A DNA stretch of 64,000 nucleotides from a virus. Location: the IMG/VR virus record IMGVR_UViG_3300046002_008717, positions 1 through 64,000 of that record. One strand, given 5' to 3'. A program made the position numbers and the translations under genes. Below, piece after piece: positions 4,252 to 48,454 of the stretch. Below the pieces are notes generated by a model. It was not told where the DNA came from and did no database searches. It was given only the letters and a program-made list of their open reading frames with translations. Position 1 is the stretch's first letter. Each line of letters begins with the position of its first letter.

Positions 4252-4266
4252 AAAAATAAAAATATA

Positions 4267-6938: not shown

Positions 6939-9002
6939 ATGAGCGAAGAAAAACCTAAACCCCCTTATAACAGTAGTAATTCAGATAATACTGGATCCAA
7001 TGATCCAGTATATAAAAAATCACAAAACAAAACTCCATTTCTAGATCAATACTCAACAGATCTTACGTTTATGGCTGCTAACGAAGAACTCGATATTATA
7101 ATAGGAAGAGATGAGGAAATAGAAAGGGTCTCACAGATATTATCAAGAAGGAAAAAAAATAATCCAATTTTAATAGGAGAACCGGGTGTTGGTAAAACTG
7201 CAATTGCTGAGGGCCTTGCTATAAAAATAATACAAAGAAGAGTTTCTAGAGGATTACTTAATAAGAGAGTGCTTATGCTAGATTTGGGTTCATTAGTAGC
7301 AGGAACCAAATATAGAGGACAGTTTGAAGAAAGAATTAAATCTATATTAGAAGAATTAAAAAACAATAAGGATATCATAATTTTTATAGATGAAATACAT
7401 ACCATGATAGGTGCTGGTGGATCATCTGGATCCTTAGATGCATCTAATATGTTTAAACCTGTTTTATCCAGAGGGGAAATTCAGTGTATAGGTGCTACTA
7501 CGTTAAATGAATATAGACAATATATAGAAAAAGACGGAGCTTTAGAAAGAAGATTTCAAAAAGTAATAATAAATCCACCTAGTGCAGAAGTTACTATAGA
7601 TATATTAAACAACGTAAAAAGTAAATACGAAGAGCATCATAATGTTACTTATACTCAAGAGGCTATAATAAACTGTGTAAAGCTAACCGAACGCTATATA
7701 ACGGATCGAAATTTTCCAGACAAAGCTTTAGATGCTTTAGATGAAGCGGGCAGTAGAACGCAACTACATGATGTTAAAATACCTAATAGCATAACTAAGT
7801 TAGAAAAAGATTTAACGATTCTGGAGGTAAATAAAAAAGCATCAGTTAAAAAACAGGATTATGAAAAAGCTGCTAGTTTTAGAGATGAACAGAAAAAAAT
7901 GGAAATCACTCTAGAAAGAGAATTAAAACTATGGGAAGAAAAGCTAAAGGATAAAAGAAAAATAGTAGATGGCGATAAAGTAGCAGAGGTCGTTTCCATG
8001 ATGTCAGGTGTTCCTCTTAAGAAAGTATCGGAAGGGGAAAATACGAAACTTGCAAATATGGATGCCATATTAAAAAGCAAAGTTATCGGTCAAGATCATG
8101 CAATAGAAAAAATAGCTAGATCTATATTAAGAAATAGGATGGGATTAAAAGATCCAAATAAACCAATCGGATCATTTCTTTTTTTAGGTCCTACTGGTGT
8201 GGGTAAAACACATCTAGCAAAAAAACTAGCTGAATATATGTTTGGCGATAGTGATTCTTTGATAAGAGTGGACATGAGCGAATATATGGAAAAATTCGAT
8301 GCAACTAAAATGATAGGATCTCCTCCTGGATACGTTGGTCATGAAGATGGTGGTCAATTAACAGAAAAAGTTAGAAGAAAACCATATTCAATTATACTTT
8401 TCGACGAAGTTGAAAAAGCTCATCCTGACATATTCAATATATTATTACAGGTTTTGGATGAAGGACATTTAACAGACGGAGCAGGAAGAAAAATCGATTT
8501 CAAAAATACTCTTATTATATTAACATCAAACGTAGGTCAAAGAAGATTACAAGAATTTGGATCGGGAGTAGGTTTTTCTACAGCTAGTAAAAACACACAA
8601 AAAGACATTGAAAATGAAATGCTGTTAAAAAAAGAATTGGAGAAAAAATTTCAACCTGAATTTATAAATAGATTAGATGATATCATATACTTTAAAAATT
8701 TAAACCAGGAAGATATACTAAAAGTACTAAATATAGAATTAGGAAAAACTTTACCTAGATTGGAAGATATGGGTTATAAAATTATAGTAACACAAGATCT
8801 TAAAGAAAAAATAGCAAACATTGGATTTGATCCTAAATTTGGAGCTAGACCATTAAAAAGAATAATACAAAAATATATAGAGGATACGCTAGCTGATCTT
8901 ATGGTTCAAAATAAACTACCAGCAGGATCTACAGTAACTCTATCATACGACAAAACAAAAGAAAACACATTACAATATCCAGTTAAGATTAAAATAAAAT
9001 AA
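6939..9002 (+). CDS. clpC: ClpC-like AAA+ unfoldase lacking the N-terminal Clp-repeat domain
   Basis: Two Walker A motifs (GEPGVGKT, GPTGVGKT), IFIDEIH, LERRFQ, UVR-type QDYEKAASFRD, GSPPGYVG, VGF loop, FGARPLKR. Confidence 0.9.
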   Translation: MSEEKPKPPYNSSNSDNTGSNDPVYKKSQNKTPFLDQYSTDLTFMAANEELDIIIGRDEEIERVSQILSRRKKNNPILIGEPGVGKTAIAEGLAIKIIQRRVSRGLLNKRVLMLDLGSLVAGTKYRGQFEERIKSILEELKNNKDIIIFIDEIHTMIGAGGSSGSLDASNMFKPVLSRGEIQCIGATTLNEYRQYIEKDGALERRFQKVIINPPSAEVTIDILNNVKSKYEEHHNVTYTQEAIINCVKLTERYITDRNFPDKALDALDEAGSRTQLHDVKIPNSITKLEKDLTILEVNKKASVKKQDYEKAASFRDEQKKMEITLERELKLWEEKLKDKRKIVDGDKVAEVVSMMSGVPLKKVSEGENTKLANMDAILKSKVIGQDHAIEKIARSILRNRMGLKDPNKPIGSFLFLGPTGVGKTHLAKKLAEYMFGDSDSLIRVDMSEYMEKFDATKMIGSPPGYVGHEDGGQLTEKVRRKPYSIILFDEVEKAHPDIFNILLQVLDEGHLTDGAGRKIDFKNTLIILTSNVGQRRLQEFGSGVGFSTASKNTQKDIENEMLLKKELEKKFQPEFINRLDDIIYFKNLNQEDILKVLNIELGKTLPRLEDMGYKIIVTQDLKEKIANIGFDPKFGARPLKRIIQKYIEDTLADLMVQNKLPAGSTVTLSYDKTKENTLQYPVKIKIK

Positions 9003-9094: not shown

Positions 9095-9313
9095 ATGATT
9101 ACCAGCAATAGCGAAAATAATACAGAGAAGCAAACTATACTTAATGAAAATATGTTTCTCAAGAATAAAATAATATATTCCATAGGCTCATTAGAAACTA
9201 TTAATTATATACTTAATGATAGTGAAAATATACACGAAATGTCAGATAAAAAACTAGAGCATCTAAAAACTACTATAAATAGAGCATTAGAAAATCTCAG
9301 GGATATAACTTAA
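9095..9313 (+). CDS. Hypothetical protein
   Basis: 72-aa ORF preceded by a GTTATATATA late-like motif; convergent with GT7. Confidence 0.5.
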   Translation: MITSNSENNTEKQTILNENMFLKNKIIYSIGSLETINYILNDSENIHEMSDKKLEHLKTTINRALENLRDIT

Positions 9314-9966
9314 AGAGTTACACTTATAAATTTTGAATACTGAGAAAGTTTTTTCTCTCCTATTTTTTTATATTCTAATGTAGATAAACCATCTCCCATT
9401 ATATACTCATGCGTTGGATTTTTTTGAAATAAAGCTAGTCTTTCCAAATTCTTATAGTACGGTGCTCTATTAATTATTCTTTCGTGATCTAGAGATGAAT
9501 ATCTACAATTTTTTCTGGAAACCGGTACATCCATTATAAGACACCTATGTAATACATCATCATCTTCTGCACCCCATCCCCAATACTCGTTGGCATACCC
9601 GTTTATTTTTTTAAAGCTTGATTTATCAAATATGGTAACGCCCCCAAAATATCCCTCATATGGTAATTTATAACCGAATTGTTCAGCTTCGGAAGCTAAA
9701 TGAGTAGGGCAATCAACATAACTATAATCTGAATCTACAGGTAGCATATCAACATCATGGAAAGCAAAATAATCAAAATCTGATGCTAATTCAAATCCAA
9801 TATTTAATAATTTACCTCTATTGAAATCTTTATTATCCCCCTGATTTATTACAAATATATTAAATTGTATGCCATCTTCCTTCATAGATTTTTCCATATG
9901 TGGTATGAATTTTTTAAGATGTTCTTTTCTATCTCTGTATGGGACAATAATAGCTAATTTTTCCAT
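9310..9966 (-). CDS. GT7 family beta-1,4-galactosyltransferase-like protein
   Basis: KLAIIVPYRDR, FNRGKLLNIGF, FHDVDMLP, YFGGV, NGYANEYWGWGAEDDD; start moved to MEKLAII at 9966. Confidence 0.92.
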   Translation of the reverse strand: MEKLAIIVPYRDRKEHLKKFIPHMEKSMKEDGIQFNIFVINQGDNKDFNRGKLLNIGFELASDFDYFAFHDVDMLPVDSDYSYVDCPTHLASEAEQFGYKLPYEGYFGGVTIFDKSSFKKINGYANEYWGWGAEDDDVLHRCLIMDVPVSRKNCRYSSLDHERIINRAPYYKNLERLALFQKNPTHEYIMGDGLSTLEYKKIGEKKLSQYSKFISVTL

Positions 9967-9980
9967 AATATAGTTTATTT

Positions 9981-10047
9981 TTTTTAGTTTGATATTGGTA
10001 ATTAGTTTCATTAATAATGAAACTATACGGTCACAAAATACTAATAT
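9981..10047. promoter_or_regulatory. Back-to-back GAAAC-N18-TAnnAW promoters for GT7 (-) and the GT11 operon (+)
   Basis: Inverted repeat gtttcatt-aat-aatgaaac; + strand GAAAC 10019-10023, N18, TAATAT; - strand GAAAC 10009-10005, N18, TAAAAA. Confidence 0.55.
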
Positions 10048-10074
10048 GTATAGAGGATTTTAAATAAATTAATA

Positions 10075-10866
10075 ATGATAACATTTAATAGAATAGGCTA
10101 TATGGGAAGATTGGGAAACCAAATGTTCCAAATGGCATCAACCATAGGGATAGCAAGAAAACTTAACTATGATGTAAAATTCCCATCAGAAAACTTTATA
10201 AAAGGATCAGGATATGAATATAATGGGTGCGATTTAATCGAATGTTTTGATATACCGGAAATTTTAATAACATTAAGAGATTTTATACAAATTATTTCTG
10301 GGTATACAGAAAAAGAATTTACATACAATTCAGAATTATTAAATATATCAGATTATACCAATATAAATGGATATTTGCAAACAGAAAAATATTTTATTGA
10401 TATAGAGGATGAGATAAGAAAGATATTTACATTTAAAGCCAATATACGAAATATAGGAGATGCAGTAAAAATAGAAGATGGATCACACGTTTCCTTACAC
10501 ATAAGAAGGGGAGATTATTTAAATTCAATGGACTATCATCCCGTGCAAGACCACGATTACTTTAAAAATACAATGTCGGAATTTAGCGACGATCAGAAAT
10601 TTTATATTTTTTCGGATGATATCGAATGGTGTAAATCTAAATTTATTGGAGATAGATTCAGATTTATAGAAACAGGTAGTCCTTATGTCGATATGTACAT
10701 AATGTCAAAATTTAAAAATCACATAATAGCTAATAGCTCATTTAGTTGGTGGGGAGCTTGGCTATCAGGAAGAGATTCAAAGGTAATTGCGCCAAAAAAA
10801 TGGTTTGGCCCAGCAATAAACAACGATACAGCAGACATATATTGTAAAAATTGGATAATAAAATAA
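10075..10866 (+). CDS. GT11 alpha-1,2-fucosyltransferase
   Basis: GRLGNQMFQ, GYLQTEKYF, VSLHIRRGDY, IFSDDIEWC, IIANSSFSWWGAWL, APKKWF. Confidence 0.93.
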   Translation: MITFNRIGYMGRLGNQMFQMASTIGIARKLNYDVKFPSENFIKGSGYEYNGCDLIECFDIPEILITLRDFIQIISGYTEKEFTYNSELLNISDYTNINGYLQTEKYFIDIEDEIRKIFTFKANIRNIGDAVKIEDGSHVSLHIRRGDYLNSMDYHPVQDHDYFKNTMSEFSDDQKFYIFSDDIEWCKSKFIGDRFRFIETGSPYVDMYIMSKFKNHIIANSSFSWWGAWLSGRDSKVIAPKKWFGPAINNDTADIYCKNWIIK

Positions 10867-11495
10867 TGAAAATAGGTGTAGTATTTTTCCATAAGAATCT
10901 AAATAAGATATACAGGAAAGAATGGATAGAAAAATGTATAGATTCGATTAAAAATCAAACTTATAAGAATCTAGTATTATACGAGATTGATTACGGAAAT
11001 TCTGAAACTAACCTAACCGGATGTAACAATTTCTTTTCTTTAGAAAAAGAAAATTATGCAGATGCTATGAATTTCATAATAACAGAAGCATTTAACGATG
11101 GGTGTAATTATGTATTCAATACAAATATGGATGATATATTTACATTGGATAGAATAGAGAAACAATTGGAATATTTAAATAAAGGATATGATCTGGTAAC
11201 ATCTGATTTTATGTATATTGATGAAGATGATACATTTAAACAGAACATGATACATTCACCTTATAATTATCTAATAAAGGAGCATCTTAATAATAACCAT
11301 AACATAATAGCACACCCATCAGTTGGATATAGCAAAAACTTCTGGGATAATAATAAATATGATATTACTAAAACACCAGAGGAAGATCTGGATTTATGGA
11401 GGAGAGCAATTAATAATGGATATACATTCTATATAGTTCCTGAAATATTACTATTATATAGAATACACGGAACACAAGTATCAAATAAAAACTAA
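10866..11495 (+). CDS. GT2 family glycosyltransferase
   Basis: CIDSIKNQT, NMDD...RIEKQL, HPSV, EDLDLW, LLYRIH; TAATG overlap gives start at 10866. Confidence 0.8.
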   Translation: MKIGVVFFHKNLNKIYRKEWIEKCIDSIKNQTYKNLVLYEIDYGNSETNLTGCNNFFSLEKENYADAMNFIITEAFNDGCNYVFNTNMDDIFTLDRIEKQLEYLNKGYDLVTSDFMYIDEDDTFKQNMIHSPYNYLIKEHLNNNHNIIAHPSVGYSKNFWDNNKYDITKTPEEDLDLWRRAINNGYTFYIVPEILLLYRIHGTQVSNKN

Positions 11496-11501
11496 ATAAG
11501 T

Positions 11502-12113
11502 ATGTTAAAATTAAATTTTCCTCTAGTTAAGGAATGGTTCGAAGTAGATGGGGATAATACAAAATTACTAGAATATGATCTAGACCAAAATTCAAAAATA
11601 TTGGATCTTGGTGGATATAGTGGTGTATGGATAGACAAGATGATAGATAAATATGACCCGTTTGTTTATGTAATAGAACCTGTTGATTATTTTTATAATC
11701 ATCTAAATATCAGATTTTCTTCTAATCCGAAATTCAAAAGCCTTAATGTCGGTGTTGCTAAAGAATCTCATGATGGTATAATATATCTAGATAACGATTC
11801 CACGTCTATGCATGTTAAAAACGGGAATGCAAAAAAGGTTAGATTCGAAACAATAGAAAATATATTGGAATCATTCGAATTGGATGAAGTAGATTTATTA
11901 CAAATAAATATAGAGGGAGAAGAATACGAATTATTAGAAACTCTAATATCAAATGGAATGTTATCTAAATTTAAAAATATACAGGTACAATTTCATATGG
12001 GTATGCAGGATTATGATCAGAGAAGAAAAAATATACAAACTGGGCTTATTAAAAATGGATTTACCTTATTATTCGAATATCCATTTATATGGGAAGGTTG
12101 GGGTAAAAAATAA
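11502..12113 (+). CDS. FkbM family methyltransferase
   Basis: ILDLGGYSG, IEP, DLLQINIEGEEYELL, IQVQFH. Confidence 0.85.
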   Translation: MLKLNFPLVKEWFEVDGDNTKLLEYDLDQNSKILDLGGYSGVWIDKMIDKYDPFVYVIEPVDYFYNHLNIRFSSNPKFKSLNVGVAKESHDGIIYLDNDSTSMHVKNGNAKKVRFETIENILESFELDEVDLLQINIEGEEYELLETLISNGMLSKFKNIQVQFHMGMQDYDQRRKNIQTGLIKNGFTLLFEYPFIWEGWGKK

Positions 12114-12116
12114 AAT

Positions 12117-12845
12117 ATGGACTTCACTTTCGGTATAGTCACTGCAGGAAATAGATACAATATAGATCTTATAATAAAAAGTATAAGATTACTAAAGATT
12201 GAAAGATACGAAATAATTGTAATAGGTGGGGATGAAATAGTGGGTAATGATGTGATACATTTAGAATTTCCTGATAATATAAAAGGGGATTTATCAATAA
12301 AGAAAAATAGAATAACTGATGCTGCAAAATACGAAAATATAGTTTATTTACATGACTATATAATATTCGATATAAATTGGTATAATGGGTTTCTAAAATT
12401 TGGTAACGATTTTGATGTATGTATGAATAAAATAAATAATACAGACGGAACCCGATATAGAGATTGGTGCTTATGGAAAGATGATGCTGACTTTTATACT
12501 AGACCTTTAAATTATCTGATACCATATGATATGAAAAATCTATCGGGAATGATGTATATTTCAGGAGCTTACTGGGTTGCTAAAAAAGAATTCATGGCTA
12601 AAAATAGACTTAATGAAAAATTATCATGGGGTCAAGGTGAAGATGTTGAATGGTCATTAAGGGTAAGAGATAACACAGCATTTAAAATGAATATACATTC
12701 AAAAGTTAATTTATTAAAATATAAGGATAGGATTTTCAATGAAATTTCGGAAACTGAAAGAATTATTTTAGATGCTATCCCATTTTATATAAATACAAAA
12801 GCATACGAGCTTCTTATAAATAATCATTTATCGCAATGGATATAA
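12117..12845 (+). CDS. GT-A fold (GT2-like) glycosyltransferase
   Basis: FTFGIVT, YEIIVIG, KKN...AKYENIVYLHDY, WGQGEDVEWS. Confidence 0.75.
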   Translation: MDFTFGIVTAGNRYNIDLIIKSIRLLKIERYEIIVIGGDEIVGNDVIHLEFPDNIKGDLSIKKNRITDAAKYENIVYLHDYIIFDINWYNGFLKFGNDFDVCMNKINNTDGTRYRDWCLWKDDADFYTRPLNYLIPYDMKNLSGMMYISGAYWVAKKEFMAKNRLNEKLSWGQGEDVEWSLRVRDNTAFKMNIHSKVNLLKYKDRIFNEISETERIILDAIPFYINTKAYELLINNHLSQWI

Positions 12846-13636
12846 TCAACAAAGGAATAACTTTTGGTATAATAACAACCAAAGAAACACAATCTTATCT
12901 TGATATCATAATAGATACCATAAAAAAACAGCAAATACCCAATAATCTATATGAAATAATAATAGTTGGTAATTGTGATATAATAGACATAGAAAATACA
13001 ACGGTAATCCCTTTTGATGAATCGGTAAAGCATATGTGGATAACCAAGAAAAAAAATACGATAACAAATAACGCAAAATTTGAAAATATAGTTTATCTGC
13101 ATGATTATATTGCATTATGCAATGGATGGTATAATGGATTCTTAAATTTTGGATTTGATTGGGATATATGCATGAACCCAATATCGAATTTAGACGGTGG
13201 ATCCAGAATATTAGATTGGATGGGCTTACCTGATGATAATATTTACGGAAACGTAGTTCTGCCATATCACTATAAGGGATCTAGTGGAATGTACATACCT
13301 GGTTATTATTGGATAGCTAAAAAAAATATAATGTTAGAATTCCCACTGAATGAAAATTATTTGTGGGGAGAAGGTGAAGATATAGAATGGAGTAAAAGAG
13401 TACTTGGCGGATTTCCTCCTCCGTGGTTAAAATCTCGTAATGATATACTAAATAATCACGTAGCTATAAAAAAACATAAATATGTTATAAATACAGAATC
13501 AAGAGTTTTTTCTTTTAAATATAAAGAATCGCATATAAATTTTTTTAATAAATATGATTTACACAGTGGCGACGAATCTAGACCTTTAGCATCGAATACA
13601 GAAAATTATGAATATTTAAAATATAGGAAATCATGA
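12836..13636 (+). CDS. GT-A fold (GT2-like) glycosyltransferase, tandem paralog of 12117..12845
   Basis: ITFGIIT, YEIIIVG, KKN...AKFENIVYLHDY, WGEGEDIEWS. Confidence 0.75.
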   Translation: MDIINKGITFGIITTKETQSYLDIIIDTIKKQQIPNNLYEIIIVGNCDIIDIENTTVIPFDESVKHMWITKKKNTITNNAKFENIVYLHDYIALCNGWYNGFLNFGFDWDICMNPISNLDGGSRILDWMGLPDDNIYGNVVLPYHYKGSSGMYIPGYYWIAKKNIMLEFPLNENYLWGEGEDIEWSKRVLGGFPPPWLKSRNDILNNHVAIKKHKYVINTESRVFSFKYKESHINFFNKYDLHSGDESRPLASNTENYEYLKYRKS

Positions 13637-14985
13637 AGTTGATAATATTTGATTTGGACGGAGTATTAGTAGAAGCAAAAAATATACACTTTGTTGCTTT
13701 AAATAAAGCACTAGGTGAAAAATATGCTATAGAATGGAATGAGCATTTATCCATATATGACGGTTTAAAAACAAATCAGAAATTAGAAATGCTTACTATC
13801 AGAAAGGGACTTCCTGTAGAAAGCTATAAAAAAATATGGAATGATAAACAAAAATACACAGCTGATGCATTAGCAGATTTGAAAGAATCGGAGGATTTAA
13901 AAAAATGTATAAATAGTTTATTGGAAGATGGGTATAAACTTGCTGTTTGTTCCAATAGTATAAGAAAGACTGTACTAATAGTTCTTTCTAAATTAGGAAT
14001 AATCGGAAGTTTTGATCTTATACTATCAAATGAGGACGTAAAGAATAGCAAACCTCATCCAGAAATATATTGGAAAGCAATGTCAATGCTGGAATGCCTA
14101 CCTGAGGAAACACTTATAGTAGAGGATTCTCCATATGGTTTACTAGCAGCATCCCGTAGTAGAGCAGAAATAATGAGGGTAAAATCGCCAGATGATGTAA
14201 CGTATATTAATATAAATAAATATATAAAAAAAGAAAAAATGAATAATATACCTAAATGGAAAGATGAGAAACTTAATATACTTATACCAATGGCAGGTGC
14301 GGGTAGTAGATTTGAGAAAGCTGGATATACGTTTCCCAAACCATTAATAGAAGTAAAGAATAAGCCAATGATACAAGTTGTCGTTGAAAATTTAAATATG
14401 GATGCCAACTATATCTATATAGTACAAAAAAGCCACAGAGAAAAATATAATCTAGATACTCTTCTCAATTTAATTACACCAGGATGTAAAATAGTGGAAG
14501 TTGACGGAATAACCGAGGGAGCAGCATGTACAAGTTTACTGGCCAAAGAATATATTAATAACGATTCACCTTTATTTTTTGCAAATTCTGATCAATTCGT
14601 AGAATGGGATTCTAATGAATTTATGTATAAGATGAACGAAACAAATGCTGATGGCGGAATTGTAACATTCAACGCTACCCATCCTAAATGGTCATTCGCT
14701 AAAATGGATCAAAGCGGATTGGTAACGGAAGTTGCAGAAAAAAATCCAATATCAGATATAGCAACGGTTGGCTATTATTATTGGAAAAAAGGATCAGATT
14801 TTGTAAAATATGCAGAAAGAATGATAGAAAAAAATATAAGAACAAATAATGAATTTTATGTATGTCCCGTTTTTAATCAAGCAATAGAAGACAAATTAGA
14901 AATACGAATATTCAACGTTAAGAATATGTGGGGATTAGGAACGCCAGAAGATCTAAATTACTATCTAGAAAATTATACAAAATGA
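13633..14985 (+). CDS. HAD phosphatase fused to a sugar nucleotidyltransferase-like domain
   Basis: FDLDGVL, KPHPEIY, IVEDS (HAD); LIPMAGAGSRF...PKPLI, EKNPIS, GLGTPEDL (NTP-transferase). Confidence 0.85.
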   Translation: MKLIIFDLDGVLVEAKNIHFVALNKALGEKYAIEWNEHLSIYDGLKTNQKLEMLTIRKGLPVESYKKIWNDKQKYTADALADLKESEDLKKCINSLLEDGYKLAVCSNSIRKTVLIVLSKLGIIGSFDLILSNEDVKNSKPHPEIYWKAMSMLECLPEETLIVEDSPYGLLAASRSRAEIMRVKSPDDVTYININKYIKKEKMNNIPKWKDEKLNILIPMAGAGSRFEKAGYTFPKPLIEVKNKPMIQVVVENLNMDANYIYIVQKSHREKYNLDTLLNLITPGCKIVEVDGITEGAACTSLLAKEYINNDSPLFFANSDQFVEWDSNEFMYKMNETNADGGIVTFNATHPKWSFAKMDQSGLVTEVAEKNPISDIATVGYYYWKKGSDFVKYAERMIEKNIRTNNEFYVCPVFNQAIEDKLEIRIFNVKNMWGLGTPEDLNYYLENYTK

Positions 14986-15617
14986 TTTATACATTCGGAA
15001 ATAGCCATTCCCATCTATTTACTGGATCACAACCAGGAAAATCTGGATTCGGTGAAAGTAAAAATGAGAATTTTACGAGTTTTTCATTAGGTCCAGTTAT
15101 AGCATACAATTTTATGGAATCCCATTATTCCAAAATATTAGAGGTTTTGGAATTAATTAAATTTGAGAAGGAAAATGATCATATTATGTTAATAGTCGGT
15201 GAGGTTGACTGCAGATGGCATTTACCATATCAGGCATCTATACAGGGAAGATCTAATGAATCAGTTGTTGATGAATGTATAGATAGATTATTTTCGGTTT
15301 ATATGGATCTAAAAGATAGAGGATATACCATAATAGGATGGGGTGGTCATCCATCAACAACAGATGGACATAATGACGATCCGAATCAACCAGTATTTGG
15401 CGATTGCGTAAATAGAAATAATATAAGCAGATATTGGGATAACGCTCTTAGAACTAAATGCGAATCTAATAATATTGAATATATCTCAATAATGGATAAT
15501 TTAATAGATGAAAACGGATTAACTAAAATGGAATATTTTATAGATTACTGCCATCTTGATACACTGAAAACATATCCACTATACATAAATAAATTTAAAA
15601 ATTTAAAAATAATATGA
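14982..15617 (+). CDS. SGNH/GDSL-like hydrolase
   Basis: FGNSH, GEVDCR, DYCHL; ATGA overlap with upstream stop sets start at 14982. Confidence 0.6.
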   Translation: MIYTFGNSHSHLFTGSQPGKSGFGESKNENFTSFSLGPVIAYNFMESHYSKILEVLELIKFEKENDHIMLIVGEVDCRWHLPYQASIQGRSNESVVDECIDRLFSVYMDLKDRGYTIIGWGGHPSTTDGHNDDPNQPVFGDCVNRNNISRYWDNALRTKCESNNIEYISIMDNLIDENGLTKMEYFIDYCHLDTLKTYPLYINKFKNLKII

Positions 15618-16333
15618 ACGAAAAATATACAGAATGGTCTGATTTAATTAATATAATATACGAAAGCAGCGGTATATTATTCGAAGCTGGAAGATGTCAC
15701 CCTGAACATAATGGTCTATCGATATCAGGAAATCTACCGTTTTCCATAAGCGAATATGAATTTAATTATATTAAAAATTTCATAATAAAAAATGATCTAA
15801 AAAATGGCTATGAGCTTGCCACTGGAATAGGTATATCCACAATAGCTATAGGATATGCACTAAGTAAAAATAACGGAAAGTTAATTACAGTTGATTCGTA
15901 TATGGAGGAGGAAATACAGAATCAACCTATTGATAATACAGGGCTAAGCTTTTCGAATACGGGATTTTGGAGAAACTCCATGTTATTCAAGTCGATGGGA
16001 TTAGAAAATGTTATACCATATAAAAGATCAAGCCCGGAGTGTGAAGATATACTCGATACTGAATTTAATAATGATATAGATTTTGCATTTTTAGATTGCC
16101 CTAAAGATGCTAACGATTTTGTTAGAGATGCAACCATATTAAAAAATAGAATAAATAGGGATAAGTTTGCAATATTTGTTCATGATACGCATTGCTTTGA
16201 AAGGGAATTTCTTCTTCTATCAAAGGAGATTTTTGGAATAGAAGGTATATTTATATTTGACTTCAAAGATAGCCTTGATAATCAAATTAAACAAAAATTT
16301 CAACTTGGACTAATAACAAATATAAAAATATGA
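15614..16333 (+). CDS. Class I SAM-dependent methyltransferase
   Basis: YELATGIGIST, LITVDSY, IDFAFLD, FVHDT. Confidence 0.75.
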   Translation: MNEKYTEWSDLINIIYESSGILFEAGRCHPEHNGLSISGNLPFSISEYEFNYIKNFIIKNDLKNGYELATGIGISTIAIGYALSKNNGKLITVDSYMEEEIQNQPIDNTGLSFSNTGFWRNSMLFKSMGLENVIPYKRSSPECEDILDTEFNNDIDFAFLDCPKDANDFVRDATILKNRINRDKFAIFVHDTHCFEREFLLLSKEIFGIEGIFIFDFKDSLDNQIKQKFQLGLITNIKI

Positions 16334-16770
16334 TACTGATATCACATAGAGGAAATACAAATGGTATAATGGGATCATGGGAAAACGAGCCAACATATAT
16401 AGATCTAGCATTAAGTAGAGGATTTGATGTTGAAATTGATGTTTGGTATAAAGATAAATTTCTTTATCTAGGACACGATAAACCAGATTACGGGGTTGGT
16501 ATTAATTGGGTAAGCGAAAGAGCAAATAATTTATGGATACATTGTAAAAATATAGAAGCATTGATTTATTTAAAATCTGTTAATAACTCAGAACTAAATT
16601 ACTTTTGGCACGAAACAGATAAAGCTACATTAACATCAAATGGTTCAATATGGGCATACCCAGGAAATCAACCAATGATAGGTAGTATTTCAGTATTACC
16701 CGAATTATATAATGATGCTACCGATCAATGTAGTGGTATATGTAGTGACTTTATAGAGCGTTATAAATAA
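16330..16770 (+). CDS. GDPD/PLC-like phosphodiesterase
   Basis: LISHRGN, ENEP, GFDVEIDVW, LGHD, WIHCKN, GICSD. Confidence 0.75.
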   Translation: MILISHRGNTNGIMGSWENEPTYIDLALSRGFDVEIDVWYKDKFLYLGHDKPDYGVGINWVSERANNLWIHCKNIEALIYLKSVNNSELNYFWHETDKATLTSNGSIWAYPGNQPMIGSISVLPELYNDATDQCSGICSDFIERYK

Positions 16771-16797
16771 TGAAATTTTATAATTTATTTAACTATA

Positions 16798-17529
16798 ATG
16801 AAAATGAAAAAAACTATTACGCTAAATTTAATAGCAACTAATAAATATACGATTTTTTTAGATCAAATTATAGAATCTGCAGTAAAATTTTTTATGACCG
16901 ATTCGCTTTTAAAGTTTATAATTTATACCGATTCATTGGATATAGAAGAAAAAGAAAATCTAAAAGTTGTTCATATAGAACATGAAATATGGCCGGGACC
17001 AACACTTAAAAGATTTCATTATTTCTGTAAAGGTGAAAGCTTGATAGAAGAATCAGATTTTTCTTTTTATGTTGATGTTGATAGCACATTCACAAAAGAA
17101 ATTACATCCGATATATTTGGTGGCATAAGAACAGATTGCATCATAGGAACATTGCATCCAGGATTTTATAATAGTATAGGAACACCAGAAAGAAATCACG
17201 AATCTACCGCATGCATACCATACGGGAGCGATAATTTATATTATTGTGGAGGATTTTTTGGGGCAGATTCTGCTTCTTTTATAGAGATGTCAAAAAAAAT
17301 AAGTGGCAATATAGATTTAGATCTTGATAAAAATATAATTGCAATCTGGCATGATGAATCGCATTTAAATAAATATTTTTTTGAAACCCCGCCTGATATA
17401 ATATTGGGTATCGGTTTTACGTGCCCAGAAGAACAGATTCATGATAGGATAATATTATATGGCCAGCCAAGCATAGTATTTATTAACAAAGGATCCGATG
17501 AAAAAAGAAATGAACTTAGAAATACATAA
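16798..17529 (+). CDS. GT6 family (ABO-type) alpha-1,3-GalNAc/Gal transferase
   Basis: IATNKY, WPGPTLKRF, DVD, GTLHPGF, PER...STACIP, YYCGGFFG, AIWHDESHLNKYF. Confidence 0.92.
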   Translation: MKMKKTITLNLIATNKYTIFLDQIIESAVKFFMTDSLLKFIIYTDSLDIEEKENLKVVHIEHEIWPGPTLKRFHYFCKGESLIEESDFSFYVDVDSTFTKEITSDIFGGIRTDCIIGTLHPGFYNSIGTPERNHESTACIPYGSDNLYYCGGFFGADSASFIEMSKKISGNIDLDLDKNIIAIWHDESHLNKYFFETPPDIILGIGFTCPEEQIHDRIILYGQPSIVFINKGSDEKRNELRNT

Positions 17530-17539
17530 ATTATAAAAA

Positions 17540-19255
17540 ATGTTAGATTTAAAACAAACAACTATAATTATACCCATAAAGATAGAACATCAAGATAGGT
17601 ATAGAAATGCAAAGACTGTCTTAAATTTTATGAATACCCATTTCGAAACTAATGTATTCATATACGAATCCTCCGATAATGGAATAAGTAGATTAGATTT
17701 CTTAGATGAACTTACAAATCTAAAAATAAAAACATGGATAATAAAAGACGAAGATTCTTTTCATAGAACGAAGTATTTAAATATAATGCTCGATGAAATA
17801 GAAACTGATGCGGTAGCTAATTATGATATTGATATCTTATTGGAGCCAACAAATCTATATAACTGTCAAAATTTATTAATATACAATAAAGCTGATGTTA
17901 TATTTCCATACGGGTACGGAAATAACCAAATACAGATACTAGAAACATTTAACTATCCAGGATTTGCAGAATCCGGATATAATTTAGATTATATTAAAAA
18001 ATCTGACAAAAAATTAAATCATACTTCAGAATGCGGGCATTGTGTAATGTTCAGAACCTCAGTATATAGGGAAGGATTCGGTGAAAATGAAAACTTTATA
18101 TCATATGGACCTGAGGATAAGGAAAGAATGGATAGATTTAAAAAAATGAAATATAATGTTAGATGGATGCCAGGTGAAACTGTCTATCATTTAGAACACT
18201 ATAGGGGAAATGATAGCTGGCAAACAAATCCGTACTATCGATCAAATTGGGAAATATTTGAAAGATTGAAGGGATTATCATATGGGGAGCTAATGGATTA
18301 TTACATAAATCAGATATATCAAAAAAAATATAATACAATAGGAACACAAAAAAAAATTCTAATAACTGGTGGAAATGGTTTAATAGGAAGAGCTTTTTCT
18401 GGAGATGTACGTAAAATAGGATCAAAAAATTGTGATTTAAGAAATCCAAGTGAAGTAAAAGCATTTATAGAAAAAGGAGAATATACTGGGATAATACATT
18501 GTGCTGCTAAAGTTGGTGGTATACAAGGAAATCTAGATAGACCTGGTGAATTCTTTTATGATAATATAATGATGAATACTAACGTTATAGAAGAAGCAAG
18601 AAAAGCAGGAATTAAAAAATTAATATTTTTTGCTTCTACCTGCGTTTTTCCTGATTCAGTTGAATATCCGCTTAGCCCTGAAAAAATACATAATGGGAAT
18701 CCACATCCATCCAATTATGCATATGCATTTGCTAAAAGAATGGGAGATGTGCAAATACAAGCATATAAAGATCAATATGATCTTGACTATTTTACTGTAA
18801 TCCCAGGTAATGTATATGGTCCAGGAGATATGTACAATCTTAATGATGCCCACGTAATTCCGGCATTAATACATAAGATGTATTTAGCTAAATTGAATGG
18901 AACCGAATTTAAAGTATGGGGAAGTGGTACTCCATTAAGAGAATTTATATTCTCAGAAGATGTTGCAAAACTTACTATGCTACTATATGATAATTATACG
19001 GGTAGAGATCCGGTTATACTATCAACATCAGAAGAAATATCGATTAGAGAGGTAGTTCTTTTAATAGCGGAACTTATGGAATATAAAGGATCAATAATTT
19101 TCGATTCATCTAAACCCGATGGTCAATATAGAAAACCTAGCGATAATTCAGTAATAACAAATATGTTTCCGGATTTTAAATTTACACCAATTAGAGAAGG
19201 TTTAAGTAAATCTATAAATTGGTTTATCGAAAACTATCCAAATGTTAGACTATAA
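17540..19255 (+). CDS. fcl: Fusion of a GT-A (GT2/GT7-like) glycosyltransferase and GDP-L-fucose synthase
   Basis: N-half FHRTKYLN, NYDID, ENFISYGPED; C-half ILITGGNGLIG, HCAAKVGGI, YAFAKR, NVYGPGD, HVIPALI, VWGSGTPLREF, KPDGQ. Confidence 0.88.
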   Translation: MLDLKQTTIIIPIKIEHQDRYRNAKTVLNFMNTHFETNVFIYESSDNGISRLDFLDELTNLKIKTWIIKDEDSFHRTKYLNIMLDEIETDAVANYDIDILLEPTNLYNCQNLLIYNKADVIFPYGYGNNQIQILETFNYPGFAESGYNLDYIKKSDKKLNHTSECGHCVMFRTSVYREGFGENENFISYGPEDKERMDRFKKMKYNVRWMPGETVYHLEHYRGNDSWQTNPYYRSNWEIFERLKGLSYGELMDYYINQIYQKKYNTIGTQKKILITGGNGLIGRAFSGDVRKIGSKNCDLRNPSEVKAFIEKGEYTGIIHCAAKVGGIQGNLDRPGEFFYDNIMMNTNVIEEARKAGIKKLIFFASTCVFPDSVEYPLSPEKIHNGNPHPSNYAYAFAKRMGDVQIQAYKDQYDLDYFTVIPGNVYGPGDMYNLNDAHVIPALIHKMYLAKLNGTEFKVWGSGTPLREFIFSEDVAKLTMLLYDNYTGRDPVILSTSEEISIREVVLLIAELMEYKGSIIFDSSKPDGQYRKPSDNSVITNMFPDFKFTPIREGLSKSINWFIENYPNVRL

Positions 19256-19260
19256 GTAAT

Positions 19261-20244
19261 ATGAAAAGAAGAGCACTAATAACAGGAATAAATGGGCAAA
19301 CTGGTAGTTACCTAGCCGAATTTTTAATTAAGAAAGGATACGAAGTATTCGGAACGATTAAAAGAAATTCAATAGCAGAAAATCAAACAATTAGATTAGA
19401 TAGCATATATGAAGAAATAAAAAATAATTTAATATATGCTGATCTATTGGATGTTCCATCGTTATTACATGCTCTTAAAATATCAGATCCCGATGAGGTT
19501 TATAATTTAGCAGCTCAATCCCACGTTAAAATATCATTCGATCAACCAGTATATACTGCGCAAGCTACAGGAATAGGCACATTAAATTTATTAGAAGCTA
19601 TTAGAATATGGAATCCAAAAATTAAAATGTATCAAGCTTCGTCATCGGAAATGTTTGGTAATTCAGTAGATACCGATGGCTATCAGAGAGAAACAACACC
19701 AATGAATCCAGTATCCCCATATGGGTGTGCTAAAGTTTTTAGCTATAACATATGTAGAAATTACAGAAACTCGTATGATATGTTTATTACTAATGGTATA
19801 CTATTCAATCACGAGAGCCCGCGTAGGGGTACAAATTTTGTCACTAACAAGATAGTAAAGTGTGCAGTGGAGATTAAGCTTGGTTTATCGAAACAACTCG
19901 TATTAGGCAATCTAAATGCAACTAGAGATTGGGGTCATGCTAAAGATTACGCTGAAGCAATGTGGTTAATGTTGCAAGAAGATAAATCAGACGATTACGT
20001 TTGCTCCACCGGTATATCGCATTCTGTATTGGAATTAGTAAAATATGTTTTTGAAAAACTTGATTTGAATTGGGAATCATACGTGATTACGAATGAAAAA
20101 TTTCTAAGGCCCGAAGAATTATGTAATCTAAAAGGTGATTCTAGCAAACTGAGAAACAAAACAGGATGGAAACCAACATATGATTTTGAAACTATGTTAG
20201 ATGAAATGATGAAACACTGGGTTACTTTTTATTACGAAAAATAA
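19261..20244 (+). CDS. gmd: GDP-mannose 4,6-dehydratase
   Basis: ALITGINGQTGSYLAE, YNLAAQSHV, YQASSSEMFG, SPYGCAK, ILFNHESPRRG, RDWGHAKDY. Confidence 0.96.
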   Translation: MKRRALITGINGQTGSYLAEFLIKKGYEVFGTIKRNSIAENQTIRLDSIYEEIKNNLIYADLLDVPSLLHALKISDPDEVYNLAAQSHVKISFDQPVYTAQATGIGTLNLLEAIRIWNPKIKMYQASSSEMFGNSVDTDGYQRETTPMNPVSPYGCAKVFSYNICRNYRNSYDMFITNGILFNHESPRRGTNFVTNKIVKCAVEIKLGLSKQLVLGNLNATRDWGHAKDYAEAMWLMLQEDKSDDYVCSTGISHSVLELVKYVFEKLDLNWESYVITNEKFLRPEELCNLKGDSSKLRNKTGWKPTYDFETMLDEMMKHWVTFYYEK

Positions 20245-20248
20245 AAAT

Positions 20249-20407
20249 ATGAGAGATTTAAATGAAATCGAAAAAGAATTTATATGCAGACGGTGTTGTA
20301 TATTTTTAAATACTGTAGATTTAGAAGATAGTAAATGTCCAGCGTGTAAAACAGACGGAGACATTTTTCTAAACGATTTGATAGATGATAGCGACGAATA
20401 TATCTGA
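20249..20407 (+). CDS. Small zinc-ribbon protein (52 aa, not in ORF track)
   Basis: MRDLNEIEKEFICRRCCIFLNTVDLEDSKCPACKTDGDIFLNDLIDDSDEYI, with CxxC...CxxC, between gmd and the terminator. Confidence 0.65.
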   Translation: MRDLNEIEKEFICRRCCIFLNTVDLEDSKCPACKTDGDIFLNDLIDDSDEYI

Positions 20408-20424
20408 TACTAGCATATTAATCC

Positions 20425-20459
20425 AAAAAGTCATAACTTTTAGTTATGACTTTTTTTTT
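20425..20459 (+). terminator. Rho-independent terminator ending glycosylation cluster 1
   Basis: aaaaagtcataact-ttt-agttatgacttttttttt. Confidence 0.88.
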
Positions 20460-20467
20460 GATATATA
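20460..20467 (+). promoter_or_regulatory. Putative late promoter motif GATATATA
   Basis: Abuts the terminator, 17 nt before ATG 20485. Confidence 0.6.
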
Positions 20468-20484
20468 CAATAAAAATAAACATA

Positions 20485-21762: not shown

Positions 21763-21763
21763 A

Positions 21764-22408
21764 ATGATAAAAGATTTTCATAAATTTTCAATATCTGAGG
21801 ATGATGGCTATAAAGAAAATACAGTCATTAAAAAAAGGGATACCGGACAAAGCTCAAAAGATAGCTATTTTATTTTTTTAACAGAAACATTAAATTGTAT
21901 TGCTGAGATGGTAAATATAATATCTCAATACGATAACAACATTACCAAAAACATAAGCGAGCAAGAATATAATTTAGGTAAATCTTTAAAAAAAGATAAA
22001 AATTCTCATAAAAAATTATGGGATGAATTATTAAAAATAGGTTCAGTATTAATTTCTAAAAAACCAACAACCAATCCTGTAGATCAAATAGTAGATAAAT
22101 ATAAGGAATCTCTAAAAGAATTAGAGGATCAAGAAAAGAGCGGTAAATTAAGTCCAGAAAAAGCAATCGAAAATAAAAAAGCATTGCACGATGAAGCTAA
22201 TAAACACCTAAAAGACGGAAAAAGTGTATTTTATAAAAAAGCACCGAATGCTTTATTGCATTACAATGAAGCAATAATTACATTTGCAAAAGGTGCTTCT
22301 ATTGAAATCGATAATATGGAAAAAGAAAAAGAAGATAAAGATAATAAACATAATAGATTATCCGATGTTACTTTTGCCGTTTCTAATATACTAACTAAAA
22401 ATAAATAA
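21764..22408 (+). CDS. Hypothetical charged helical protein; putative internal head protein
   Basis: N-terminus MIKDFHKFSISE resembles the T4 capsid-targeting leader. Confidence 0.5.
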   Translation: MIKDFHKFSISEDDGYKENTVIKKRDTGQSSKDSYFIFLTETLNCIAEMVNIISQYDNNITKNISEQEYNLGKSLKKDKNSHKKLWDELLKIGSVLISKKPTTNPVDQIVDKYKESLKELEDQEKSGKLSPEKAIENKKALHDEANKHLKDGKSVFYKKAPNALLHYNEAIITFAKGASIEIDNMEKEKEDKDNKHNRLSDVTFAVSNILTKNK

Positions 22409-22409
22409 T

Positions 22410-37131: not shown

Positions 37132-37134
37132 ATC

Positions 37135-38376: not shown

Positions 38377-38377
38377 T

Positions 38378-38620: not shown

Positions 38621-38622
38621 AC

Positions 38623-45727: not shown

Positions 45728-45737
45728 TGTTAATTAT

Positions 45738-48448: not shown

Positions 48449-48454
48449 TTTTTA

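What the first reader, a model, noticed from the sequence alone, without database searches (positions are those of the whole stretch)
9310..20244. Histo-blood-group-like (H/A antigen) enzyme set with its own GDP-fucose pathway in one phage cluster
Seen: GT7, GT11, GT6, Gmd and Fcl within 11 kb, with GT7 and GT11 behind back-to-back promoter motifs. Known: beta-1,4-Gal transfer (GT7), then alpha-1,2-Fuc (GT11), then alpha-1,3-GalNAc/Gal (GT6) is the order that builds type-2 H and A/B antigens, and Gmd plus Fcl supply GDP-L-fucose. GT6 is already known from cyanophage P-SSM2, so single genes are not new; the ordered set with donor supply is the notable part. Inference: the phage makes an ABO-like glycan, possibly further methylated or phosphorylated by neighbours, on its virion or on the host surface.
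Basis: partly seen in the sequence, partly recalled or inferred. Interest (0 to 1): 0.85.

Follow-up and report, generated by a model that had tools for sequence, protein, structure and literature searches.

The report
Phage fucosylated-glycan island, blood-group-like enzymes
A fragment of a very large aquatic phage carries one operon of about fourteen sugar-handling genes, including close relatives of the three enzyme families that build human H and A blood-group sugars plus the two enzymes that make GDP-fucose; most of this set is already present in published cyanophage genomes, and the sugar it makes and its target are unknown.

Summary
All five named genes are at the stated coordinates, with family motifs and catalytic residues intact. 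It has at least seven glycosyltransferase domains, two methyltransferases, a HAD-nucleotidyltransferase fusion, a GDPD-like and an SGNH-like protein, and "Fcl" is fused to a GT-A domain.

The claim that the set is new is only partly right. P-SSM2 (published 2005) already holds Gmd, an Fcl homologue, GT11 and GT6 in one 12-kb cluster. Of 80 IMG/VR loci with GT6, 65 also have GT11, 35 Gmd and 33 Fcl.

The new parts are these:
- A soluble GT7 of 218 aa, about 37% identical to human B4GALT1, with no match in 50,697 deposited phage records.
- Its conserved divergent pairing with GT11 in 14 loci, including four complete phages of 348-434 kb.

GT6 is optional: two of those four complete relatives have it.

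Residue-level reading allows Gal, then alpha-1,2-Fuc, then alpha-1,3-GalNAc. The many extra enzymes imply a larger, methylated glycan. All the enzymes look soluble, and no lipid-carrier machinery was found. I favour direct glycosylation of phage proteins, perhaps the collagen-like fibres in the same window; this is inference.

The scan flagged the same island type on several other genomes. Interest is moderate.

The parts
9095..9313 (+). 72-aa ORF, convergent with GT7; function unknown
   Evidence: No Pfam, NCBIfam or PHROG hit. Kept next to GT7 in 12 related loci at 37-48% identity.
9310..9966 (-). GT7 beta-1,4-galactosyltransferase-like enzyme, soluble, 218 aa (the longest ORF runs to 10011)
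   Evidence: Pfam 7N and 7C. Human and bovine B4GALT1 E 1e-44 over the whole catalytic domain, with DVD, WGWGAEDDD, FNRGKLLNIG and the Tyr289-equivalent Tyr kept. 1396 homologues, most of 218-219 aa. No hydrophobic segment.
10003..10025 (.). Perfect 23-bp palindrome between the divergent GT7 and GT11 genes: two back-to-back GAAAC boxes, or an operator
   Evidence: Relatives carry GTTCC-N7-9-GGAAC at the same place.
10075..10866 (+). GT11 alpha-1,2-fucosyltransferase-like enzyme
   Evidence: Pfam 118 bits. Motifs GRLGNQMFQ, HIRRGDY, FSDD and NSSFSWWGAWL. 38-43% identical to cyanophage GT11 genes.
10851..11495 (+). GT2 glycosyltransferase, overlaps the end of GT11
   Evidence: Pfam Glycos_transf_2. 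A GT2 sits in the same position in L004, L032 and L038.
11502..12113 (+). FkbM-family methyltransferase (probably a sugar O-methylase)
   Evidence: Pfam and TIGR01444. FkbM genes sit in the same position in L032 and L038.
12117..12845 (+). GT-A-like glycosyltransferase, paralogue 1
   Evidence: 42% identical to the next gene. HDY and GEDxEWSxR motifs. A profile of the family hits the GT2-type enzymes RmlT and 6p61, E 2e-4.
12836..13636 (+). GT-A-like glycosyltransferase, paralogue 2
   Evidence: 61-64% identical to genes in L032 and L041.
13633..14985 (+). Fusion of a HAD domain (beta-phosphoglucomutase-like) with a sugar-phosphate nucleotidyltransferase; substrate unknown
   Evidence: 59% identical over its full length to the S-CAM9 'NDP-sugar pyrophosphorylase' and 81-83% to L032 and L041. 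It is split into two genes in L043-45, L057 and L059.
14982..15617 (+). 211-aa protein, possibly an SGNH esterase or acyltransferase
   Evidence: FGNSHS motif near the N-terminus. An Atlas cluster named SGNH scores 0.95, but only 10-14% of its members carry the Pfam family. This is a lead only; Pfam gives nothing.
15614..16333 (+). Class I SAM methyltransferase (Methyltransf_24)
   Evidence: Pfam E 4e-5, 24.9 bits, just under the cut-off of 26.3.
16330..16770 (+). 146-aa GDPD-like (glycerophosphodiester phosphodiesterase-like) protein; travels with the HAD-nucleotidyltransferase gene
   Evidence: Invariant HRGN, EN, ExD and HD motifs. phrog_34507. The model has pLDDT 91. GDPD structures recur among weak Foldseek hits, with TMq up to 0.60.
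16798..17529 (+). GT6 alpha-1,3-Gal/GalNAc-transferase-like enzyme, DXD type, minimal catalytic domain
   Evidence: Pfam 108 bits. BoGT6a E 2e-39 and human GTA E 1.5e-24, with DVD, TLHPGF, YYCGGFFG and WHDES. 36% identical to the P-SSM2 GT6.
17540..18343 (+). GT-A glycosyltransferase domain, fused in frame to Fcl
   Evidence: phrog_15655. 336 stand-alone homologues. Model pLDDT 94. Foldseek hits K4CP, LARGE1, TarP and the WrtF fucosyltransferase. It is a separate gene in L032, L034 and L038.
18344..19255 (+). GDP-L-fucose synthase (Fcl/GMER) domain
   Evidence: Human GFUS E 1e-80 and E. coli Fcl E 8e-50. The Ser-Thr-Cys, YxxAK and DxHV catalytic motifs are kept.
19261..20244 (+). GDP-mannose 4,6-dehydratase
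   Evidence: Pfam 386 bits. TIGR01472 gives 383 bits against a cut-off of 415. 47-58% identical to phage Gmd genes.
20249..20407 (+). 52-aa ORF with CxxCC...CxxC, last gene before the terminator
20425..20455 (+). Hairpin terminator ending the operon, followed by GATATATA at 20460

Best explanation
The region is a phage glycan-assembly island. It consists of one roughly 10.3-kb operon (GT11 to the terminator) plus a divergently transcribed GT7.

Proposed steps:
1. Gmd and Fcl convert the host's GDP-mannose into GDP-L-fucose.
2. The GT7 enzyme makes a beta-linked galactose.
3. GT11 adds alpha-1,2-fucose to that galactose, giving an H-like unit.
4. GT6 can cap the same galactose with alpha-1,3-GalNAc (less likely Gal), giving an A-like end.
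5. GT2, two paralogous GT-A enzymes and the GT-A domain fused to Fcl build the rest of the chain.
6. Two methyltransferases, an SGNH-like protein, and the HAD-nucleotidyltransferase with its GDPD-like partner add or supply substituents.

The product would therefore be a larger, decorated oligosaccharide that may carry an H/A-like tip, not a bare blood-group antigen.

All the enzymes are predicted to be soluble, and no lipid-carrier priming enzyme or flippase is encoded. I therefore think the glycan is built in the cytoplasm directly on phage proteins. The Thr/Ser-rich collagen-like fibres in the same window are the best candidates.

Shown: gene content, motifs, conserved synteny. Inferred: donors, acceptors, order of action, target.
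For: - Family assignment and catalytic residues.
- GT7 keeps B4GALT1 residues Phe280, Tyr286, Tyr289, Trp314, Glu317, Asp318 and His347.
- GT6 has His and Gly at the two acceptor positions that PMC3516806 links to 2'-fucosylated acceptors, and small residues (Cys, Gly) at the GTA 266/268 donor positions.
- The DXD-clade enzyme PaGT6 makes A antigen from H trisaccharide (PMC3516806).
- A prophage GT11 makes 2'-fucosyllactose in vitro (PMC12748750).
- The divergent GT7|GT11 pair is kept in 14 loci, four of them complete genomes.
- GT11 accompanies GT6 in 65 of 80 viral loci.
- The genes between the conserved anchors vary from genome to genome, as in surface-glycan loci.
- No hydrophobic segment in any enzyme.
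- No Bac_transf, Glycos_transf_4 or Polysacc_synt in four complete relatives.
- Two collagen-repeat fibres and a second sugar operon lie in the window.
- Chloroviruses, with their own GMD and GMER, glycosylate their capsid using viral enzymes (PMC5408694).
Against: - No biochemical data exist for any phage GT6 or GT7 that I could find.
- The third GT6 acceptor position (three residues before the conserved Lys) is Phe by my alignment. It is Ala in GTA and Ile in BoGT6a, and Trp in the enzyme that rejects fucose, so the residue is ambiguous.
- GT7 residues aligned to the GlcNAc N-acetyl pocket (Arg359, Phe360, Ile363) read Asn, Leu, Leu.
- GT6 is absent from two of four complete relatives.
- The GT2 coupled to GT11 could make the Gal acceptor instead of GT7.
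- Soluble transferases can also act on host lipid-linked intermediates.
- No UDP-Gal/GalNAc 4-epimerase or GDP-mannose synthesis gene was identified in the cluster.
- The contig is only about 39% of a genome.
- No initiating protein glycosyltransferase has been identified.
Confidence: 0.45

Rival explanations
1. The same enzymes remodel the host cell surface during infection. They would act on the host's undecaprenyl-linked O-antigen or capsule intermediates, and the host's own flippase and ligase would export the product. The effect could be to block superinfection or to stop progeny from re-adsorbing to the infected cell.
For: - This is the published reading of the homologous P-SSM2 and S-SCSM2R clusters (PMC1079782; PMC12801897).
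- Many bacterial O-antigen transferases are soluble or peripheral, so the lack of hydrophobic segments does not exclude it.
- GT7-GT11 neighbours also occur in bacterial MAG contigs (L029, L030).
Against: - No priming transferase, flippase or polymerase in four complete relatives.
- The GT6 is a minimal catalytic domain of 243 aa. PMC3516806 places such enzymes in a clade separate from the bacterial ones that carry a C-terminal membrane-binding domain.
- The phage looks lytic and T4-like, and has large fibre genes of its own.
Confidence: 0.25
2. The family names mislead. The enzymes build a fucose-containing, methylated glycan whose linkages and order have nothing to do with H or A antigens. 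For example, GT7 could act on Glc or Xyl or on a different branch, and GT6 could transfer Glc or Gal to an acceptor without fucose.
For: - At least seven GT domains and two methyltransferases.
- GT6 is optional.
- The best NCBIfam model for the GT6 is named 'family 6 glucosyltransferase', with 175 bits against a cut-off of 250.
- One cyanophage GT6 subgroup has different donor-site residues, QGC.
- The GT7 N-acetyl pocket is not conserved.
- The third GT6 acceptor position is Phe.
Against: - Conserved GT7|GT11 pairing and GT11-GT6 co-occurrence.
- The His/Gly acceptor signature and small donor-site residues of this GT6 match the enzymes that make A antigen.
- All characterised GT11 enzymes that I know of add fucose to beta-galactose (own knowledge).
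Confidence: 0.25
3. The transferases hypermodify phage DNA bases with an oligosaccharide, as some phages do on 5-hydroxymethylcytosine.
For: - Phage GT-A and GT-B enzymes put mono- to trisaccharides on DNA (bioRxiv 10.1101/2023.12.21.572611).
- All the enzymes here are cytoplasmic.
- Three complete relatives (G002, G003 and G004) each have a weak second thymidylate-synthase-like ORF of 259-262 aa.
Against: - No Tet/JBP dioxygenase was found, but that search also found nothing in the control genomes, so it says little.
- The strong thymidylate-synthase hits (270-283 bits) look like ordinary ThyA.
- No such base-modifying gene was recognised in or beside the cluster.
- That paper does not mention fucose among the DNA sugars (0 occurrences).
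Confidence: 0.05

Closest known systems
Prochlorococcus phage P-SSM2 'LPS gene' cluster (AY939844, about 193.4-205.5 kb) and the epimerase-GT11-GT6 modules of other Kyanoviridae (Bellamy, S-CAM9, S-PRM1, S-8S5x)
   Same: - Gmd (47% identity), an Fcl homologue (35%), GT11 (38%) and a DXD-type GT6 (36%) lie in one phage cluster with GT2 genes.
- GT11 and GT6 are adjacent in several cyanomyoviruses.
- The HAD-nucleotidyltransferase and the 146-aa partner are shared with S-CAM9 at 59% and 44% identity.
   Different: - No GT7: no tblastn hit in 50,697 phage records.
- No GT-A/Fcl fusion.
- The host is a cyanobacterium.
- The function there is also untested; it was called LPS synthesis in 2005.
E. 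coli O86 O-antigen genes (WbnJ GT2, WbnK GT11, WbnI GT6, with gmd and fcl), which make a blood-group-B-like unit (own knowledge, not checked here); Bacteroides ovatus BoGT6a and Parachlamydia PaGT6 (PMC3516806)
   Same: A bacterial-type gene cluster that combines a Gal-forming transferase, GT11, GT6 and GDP-fucose synthesis. BoGT6a and PaGT6 make A antigen from 2'-fucosylated acceptors.
   Different: - Those clusters work on undecaprenyl-linked units and have a priming enzyme, Wzx and Wzy. None was found here or in the relatives.
- Most bacterial GT6 enzymes have NXN and a membrane-binding tail. This one has DVD and no tail.
- Those clusters have no GT7.
Chlorovirus (PBCV-1) autonomous capsid glycosylation with viral GMD and GMER (PMC5408694)
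   Same: The virus makes its own GDP-fucose. Soluble viral transferases, some fused to other domains, and a predicted methyltransferase domain (A064R) build fucose-containing capsid glycans in the cytoplasm.
   Different: It is a eukaryotic virus with different transferase families, and its glycan structures are solved. Here virion glycosylation is only inferred.
Vertebrate type-2 H/A pathway (B4GALT1, FUT1/2, ABO GTA)
   Same: The same three CAZy families and the same catalytic motifs. The GT7 is about 37% identical to B4GALT1 (my count). The Fcl domain is nearer to human GFUS (E 1e-80) than to E. coli Fcl (E 8e-50).
   Different: - The phage enzymes are soluble minimal domains without Golgi anchors.
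- Acceptors are unknown.
- They sit among many other transferases.
Mycobacteriophage virion glycosylation (Freeman et al. 2023, cited in PMC12619734)
   Same: Phage-encoded transferases decorate capsid and tail proteins.
   Different: Two transferases only, no nucleotide-sugar synthesis genes, and unrelated families.

Membership tests
CAZy GT7 (beta-1,4-Gal/GalNAc transferases) | Both Pfam halves (Glyco_transf_7N and 7C) above the gathering score | tested here: met
   87.3 and 83.9 bits against cut-offs of 27 and 23.
CAZy GT7 (beta-1,4-Gal/GalNAc transferases) | DXD metal motif, the WGWGxEDDD catalytic loop and the metal-binding His | tested here: met
   HDVDMLP, WGWGAEDDD and a His aligned to His347 of B4GALT1. 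These residues are invariant in 20 homologues.
CAZy GT7 (beta-1,4-Gal/GalNAc transferases) | Gal rather than GalNAc donor (Tyr at the B4GALT1 289 position) and a GlcNAc acceptor pocket (Arg359, Phe360, Ile363) | tested here: inconclusive
   The Tyr is kept (PYEGYFGGV). The pocket positions read Asn, Leu, Leu in a gapped part of the alignment.
CAZy GT7 (beta-1,4-Gal/GalNAc transferases) | Type II membrane anchor and stem, as in the animal enzymes | tested here: not met
   218 aa, catalytic domain only; the highest 19-residue hydropathy is 0.59.
CAZy GT11 (alpha-1,2-fucosyltransferases) | Pfam above the gathering score, and the four family motifs including HxRRxD | tested here: met
   118.4 bits against 23.9. 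GRLGNQMFQ, HIRRGDY, FSDD and NSSFSWWGAWL.
CAZy GT6 (alpha-1,3-Gal/GalNAc transferases) | Pfam above the gathering score, the catalytic Glu in WHDES, and a DXD or NXN motif | tested here: met
   108 bits against 25. DVD and WHDES.
CAZy GT6 (alpha-1,3-Gal/GalNAc transferases) | Signature for a 2'-fucosylated acceptor: His, Gly, and a small residue three positions before the C-terminal Lys | tested here: inconclusive
   His and Gly are present (TLHPGF). The third position is Phe by my alignment.
GDP-L-fucose synthase (Fcl/GMER) | Ser-Tyr-Lys triad plus the Cys and His needed for 3,5-epimerisation | tested here: met
   STC, YAFAKRM and DAHVIPALI align with human GFUS, E 1e-80. The NCBIfam equivalog score of 241 is under its cut-off of 500.
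GDP-mannose 4,6-dehydratase (Gmd) | Full-length match to the Gmd models | tested here: met
   Pfam 386 bits over 1-332 of 332 positions. TIGR01472 gives 383 bits, under its cut-off of 415.
Histo-blood-group H/A antigen synthesis system | A Gal-forming transferase, an alpha-1,2-fucosyltransferase, a GT6 and a GDP-fucose supply in one locus | tested here: met
Histo-blood-group H/A antigen synthesis system | The product is GalNAc-alpha-1,3-(Fuc-alpha-1,2)-Gal-beta-R | not testable with these tools
   This needs enzyme assays or glycan analysis.
Wzx/Wzy-type surface polysaccharide cluster | A priming phosphoglycosyltransferase and a flippase | tested here: not met
   No Bac_transf, Glycos_transf_4 or Polysacc_synt in this contig or in four complete relatives. 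The control genomes were found by these searches.

The most novel reading that the evidence does not exclude
Very large aquatic phages decorate their own collagen-like fibres with an oligosaccharide ending in a true H or A blood-group epitope. The enzymes (soluble GT7, DXD-type GT6, human-like Fcl) would be the nearest non-animal relatives of the vertebrate pathway. That would place a complete ABO(H)-type assembly line in the phage gene pool and bear on the proposed horizontal origin of vertebrate GT6.
Probability: 0.12. Interest if true: 0.8.

Novelty: new variant of a known kind. Interest (0 to 1): 0.5.

Why it matters
If the enzymes act as predicted, phages of environmental bacteria make H/A-like fucosylated glycans on their own, with a self-supplied donor.

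This would give three things:
- A testable case of virion (or host-surface) glycosylation in very large phages.
- A set of small, soluble, anchor-free Gal, Fuc and GalNAc transferases of use in glycan synthesis.
- A data point on where animal-type GT6 and GT7 enzymes occur outside animals.

The function of the homologous cyanophage clusters has been open since 2005, and this island is a compact version on which to test it. The gene set itself is largely already in public genomes, and the scan has flagged it repeatedly, so the surprise is moderate.

Tried and rejected
- DNA-level search of the 10.9-kb region against deposited phages: no match.
I used the search for related loci instead.
- Is the HAD-nucleotidyltransferase with the 146-aa protein a Fru-6-P to GDP-mannose route (PMI, PMM, ManC)? 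Not supported.
  - The best nucleotidyltransferase matches are generic (rmlA_long, archaeal GlmU, the uncharacterised 4EVW).
  - The 146-aa protein is GDPD-like, not a cupin.
- Generic sigma-70 promoter scan: no enrichment over shuffles.
- G[GA]AAC upstream of genes: 6 of 34 genes, against a background of 10%. That is not significant, although five of the six show GAAAC-N17-18-TAnnAT or a near variant of it.
- GT11 against solved structures: no hit.
- Pfam at E up to 1 for the SGNH-like and GDPD-like proteins: nothing useful.
- Tet_JBP search: no hit, but the control genomes gave none either, so it is uninformative.
- I did not build a GT7 tree with animal sequences, because no referenced eukaryotic sequences were available to me.

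Full report
**What the DNA is.** The window is the first 64 kb of a single 111,728-bp IMG/VR virus record. CheckV rates the record 39% complete. It encodes tail fibres, SbcCD, a DnaB-type helicase and a UvsX/RecA-like protein. The best UvsX matches are uncultured phages of 460-735 kb and Lak phages. Four complete relatives of 348-434 kb, three of them with terminal repeats, share the local gene order ClpB-like, 72-aa ORF, GT7 | GT11. The finding therefore lies on a fragment of a very large aquatic phage. G+C in the cluster (28-32%) matches its flanks, so nothing suggests a recent import.

**Check of the observation.** The genes run as follows:
- 9310-10011(-): GT7.
- 10075-10866: GT11.
- 10851-11495: GT2.
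- 11502-12113: FkbM methyltransferase.
- 12117-12845 and 12836-13636: two paralogous GT-A-like genes.
- 13633-14985: HAD-NTP_transferase fusion.
- 14982-15617: SGNH-like (a lead only).
- 15614-16333: Methyltransf_24.
- 16330-16770: GDPD-like.
- 16798-17529: GT6.
- 17540-19255: GT-A domain fused to Fcl.
- 19261-20244: Gmd.
- 20249-20407: a 52-aa zinc-ribbon ORF.
- 20425-20455: terminator.

The genes from GT11 onward abut or overlap by 4-16 nt, so they form one transcription unit. No protein in the cluster has a hydrophobic segment that would suggest a membrane span; only the HAD core exceeds 1.6 on the 19-residue hydropathy scale.

**Enzyme-level reading: GT7.** It matches human and bovine B4GALT1 at E 1e-44 across the whole catalytic domain. 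By my count of the printed alignment it is about 37% identical. It keeps DVD, FNRxKLLNxG, WGWGxEDDD, the metal-binding His, and Phe280, Tyr286 and Tyr289. Tyr289 goes with a Gal rather than a GalNAc donor. The three residues of the N-acetyl pocket are not conserved. Its homologues are 218-219 aa long and start at the Met that is residue 16 of the longest ORF here.

**Enzyme-level reading: GT11.** It has all four family motifs. A prophage GT11 has been shown to make 2'-fucosyllactose (PMC12748750).

**Enzyme-level reading: GT6.**
- It is a minimal, DXD-type enzyme (DVD). This is the clade that PMC3516806 defines by the P-SSM2 enzyme and PaGT6, and PaGT6 converts H trisaccharide to A antigen.
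- It has the His and Gly that the same paper ties to fucosylated acceptors.
- It has Cys and Gly where GTA has Leu266 and Gly268, and BoGT6a has Ala and Gly.
- It keeps the catalytic WHDES.
- The third acceptor position, three residues before the conserved C-terminal Lys, is Phe by my alignment. P-SSM2 has Ala there. This position is ambiguous.

**Enzyme-level reading: Fcl and Gmd.** The Fcl domain keeps the Ser/Tyr/Lys triad and the Cys and His used for epimerisation. It is nearer to human GFUS (E 1e-80) than to E. coli Fcl (E 8e-50). Gmd is a full-length match.

**The rest of the cluster.**
- The N-terminal 268 aa of the 'Fcl' gene fold with high confidence (pLDDT 94) into a GT-A transferase. 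The nearest structures are K4CP, LARGE1, TarP and the WrtF fucosyltransferase.
- That domain and Fcl are separate genes in L032, L034 and L038. In L038 they abut, and the tblastn match runs across the stop between them. They are fused here.
- The two unnamed genes of 242 and 266 aa are paralogues with HDY and GEDxEWSxR motifs. A profile of them hits GT2-type structures.
- That makes at least seven transferase domains.
- The HAD-nucleotidyltransferase is 59% identical to a cyanophage S-CAM9 gene. The 146-aa gene is 44% identical to its S-CAM9 neighbour. These two, often with a member of the 242-aa transferase family, travel together in many viral contigs.
- The 146-aa protein has the HRG, EN, ExD and HD pattern of glycerophosphodiester phosphodiesterases, and GDPD structures recur among its weak fold matches.
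- I could not assign the activated substituent.

**Comparison with other genomes.**
- P-SSM2 already has Gmd, an Fcl homologue, GT2, GT11 and GT6 within 12 kb. These were described in 2005 as LPS genes (PMC1079782).
- Several cyanomyoviruses have epimerase-GT11-GT6 in a row.
- IMG/VR holds 457 stretches that encode GT6 relatives.
- Of the 80 best GT6 loci, 65 have GT11 within 10 kb, 35 have Gmd, 33 have Fcl and only 4 have GT7.
- The GT7 has no tblastn match in 50,697 deposited phage records. It does have 1396 relatives in the large protein collection and 232 stretches in IMG/VR.
- It also has relatives in bacterial MAGs, including Parachlamydiaceae, Planctomycetota, Verrucomicrobiota and Flavobacteriaceae.
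- Full-length orthologues sit divergently next to GT11 in 14 loci. The order GT11-GT2-FkbM and the ending GT-A, Fcl, Gmd are kept, while the middle genes differ between genomes.
- GT6 is present in two of four complete relatives.
- The conserved core is therefore GT7|GT11 with GDP-fucose synthesis. GT6 is an optional addition.

**Regulation.** A perfect 23-bp palindrome lies between GT7 and GT11, and relatives have GTTCC-N7-9-GGAAC at the same place. GAAAC-N17-18-TAnnAT, or a near variant of it, precedes the GT11 operon, uvsX, the second sugar operon (starting at 52004 on the minus strand) and two other genes. The late-type GATATATA appears only after the terminator. The sample is too small for statistics. 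It hints that both sugar operons are expressed with the replication genes.

**Target.**
- Four complete relatives encode no Bac_transf, Glycos_transf_4 or Polysacc_synt.
- The window has two collagen-repeat fibres of 1605 and 1416 aa and a second operon with GT4, GT9-like, DegT and GNAT genes.
- I favour cytoplasmic glycosylation of phage proteins, as chloroviruses do with their own GMD and GMER (PMC5408694). Host-surface remodelling stays a serious rival.
- DNA glycosylation is unlikely.

**Verdict.** The GT11-GT6-Gmd-Fcl set is already in published phage genomes. The soluble GT7, its conserved pairing with GT11 and the GT-A/Fcl fusion are the new variant. The scan has flagged the same island type on several other genomes, and one follow-up there reached a similar verdict. 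The product is probably a complex methylated fucosylated glycan that may end in an H/A-like unit. None of this is shown biochemically.

Noticed in passing
L050, L053, L062, L070-L106 (IMG/VR contigs): Many viral contigs carry three tandem genes that match only residues about 18-165 of the GT7. Earlier first-reader notes on other genomes say a LamG domain is inserted in the catalytic fold of such genes.
   Followed up: no
window 13633-14985, 16330-16770 and 12117-13636; L002 (S-CAM9); L043-45, L052, L057, L059, L125-126, L177-183: The HAD-nucleotidyltransferase (fused or split), a 146-aa GDPD-like protein and a transferase of the 242-aa family travel together in cyanomyoviruses and many uncultured phages. 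This looks like a self-contained 'activate and transfer' module. Its substrate is unknown.
   Followed up: partly
window 10003-10025: A perfect 23-bp palindrome with GAAAC half-sites lies between the divergent GT7 and GT11 genes. It occurs once in the window. Relatives keep GTTCC/GGAAC half-sites at the same place.
   Followed up: partly
window 10019-10047, upstream of 23476, upstream of 43265, upstream of 52004(-); genome 67392: GAAAC-N17-18-TAnnAT, or a near variant of it, precedes the GT11 operon, uvsX, a small ORF, the second sugar operon and one gene outside the window. It may be a shared middle-class promoter. The count is not significant.
   Followed up: partly
window 17540-19255; L032 905-1720 and 3-905; L038 5600-6412 and 4673-5599: The GT-A domain and Fcl are one ORF here. 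In relatives they are two abutting genes separated by a stop; in L038 the tblastn match runs across that stop. This is either a recent gene fusion or stop-codon loss.
   Followed up: partly
L013, L014 (Parachlamydiaceae genomes): GT7 homologues (42-44% identity) occur in Parachlamydiaceae. This is the bacterial family in which a DXD-type GT6 (PaGT6), similar to the phage enzymes, was characterised. No GT11 or GT6 lies within 10 kb of them.
   Followed up: no
window 20249-20407: A 52-aa acidic ORF with CxxCC...CxxC closes the sugar operon just before the terminator.
   Followed up: no
window 20460-23255: Three hydrophilic genes (438, 214 and 281 aa) follow a GATATATA motif. Homologues of the first follow Gmd in L034, L037, L038 and L108-L111 and lie further downstream in L113; the other two are found in fewer of these loci. 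No family was assigned.
   Followed up: no
window 6939-9002: A ClpB-like double AAA+ chaperone sits next to the island here, and a 697-aa ORF occupies the same position in L032 and L038. A 2025 paper (PMC12619734) describes large aquatic 'moraphages' that carry chaperones and several core glycosyltransferases and are predicted to infect Bacteroidota. I did not test whether this phage belongs to them.
   Followed up: no
G001 3798-4427 (the complete 430-kb relative): A second, more divergent GT6 copy lies far from the island.
   Followed up: no
window 43592-52004(-) and 32314-42873: A second sugar operon (two GT4-type genes, one with a GT9-like C-terminal domain, plus DegT and GNAT) is convergent on two collagen-repeat fibres of 1605 and 1416 aa.
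   Followed up: partly
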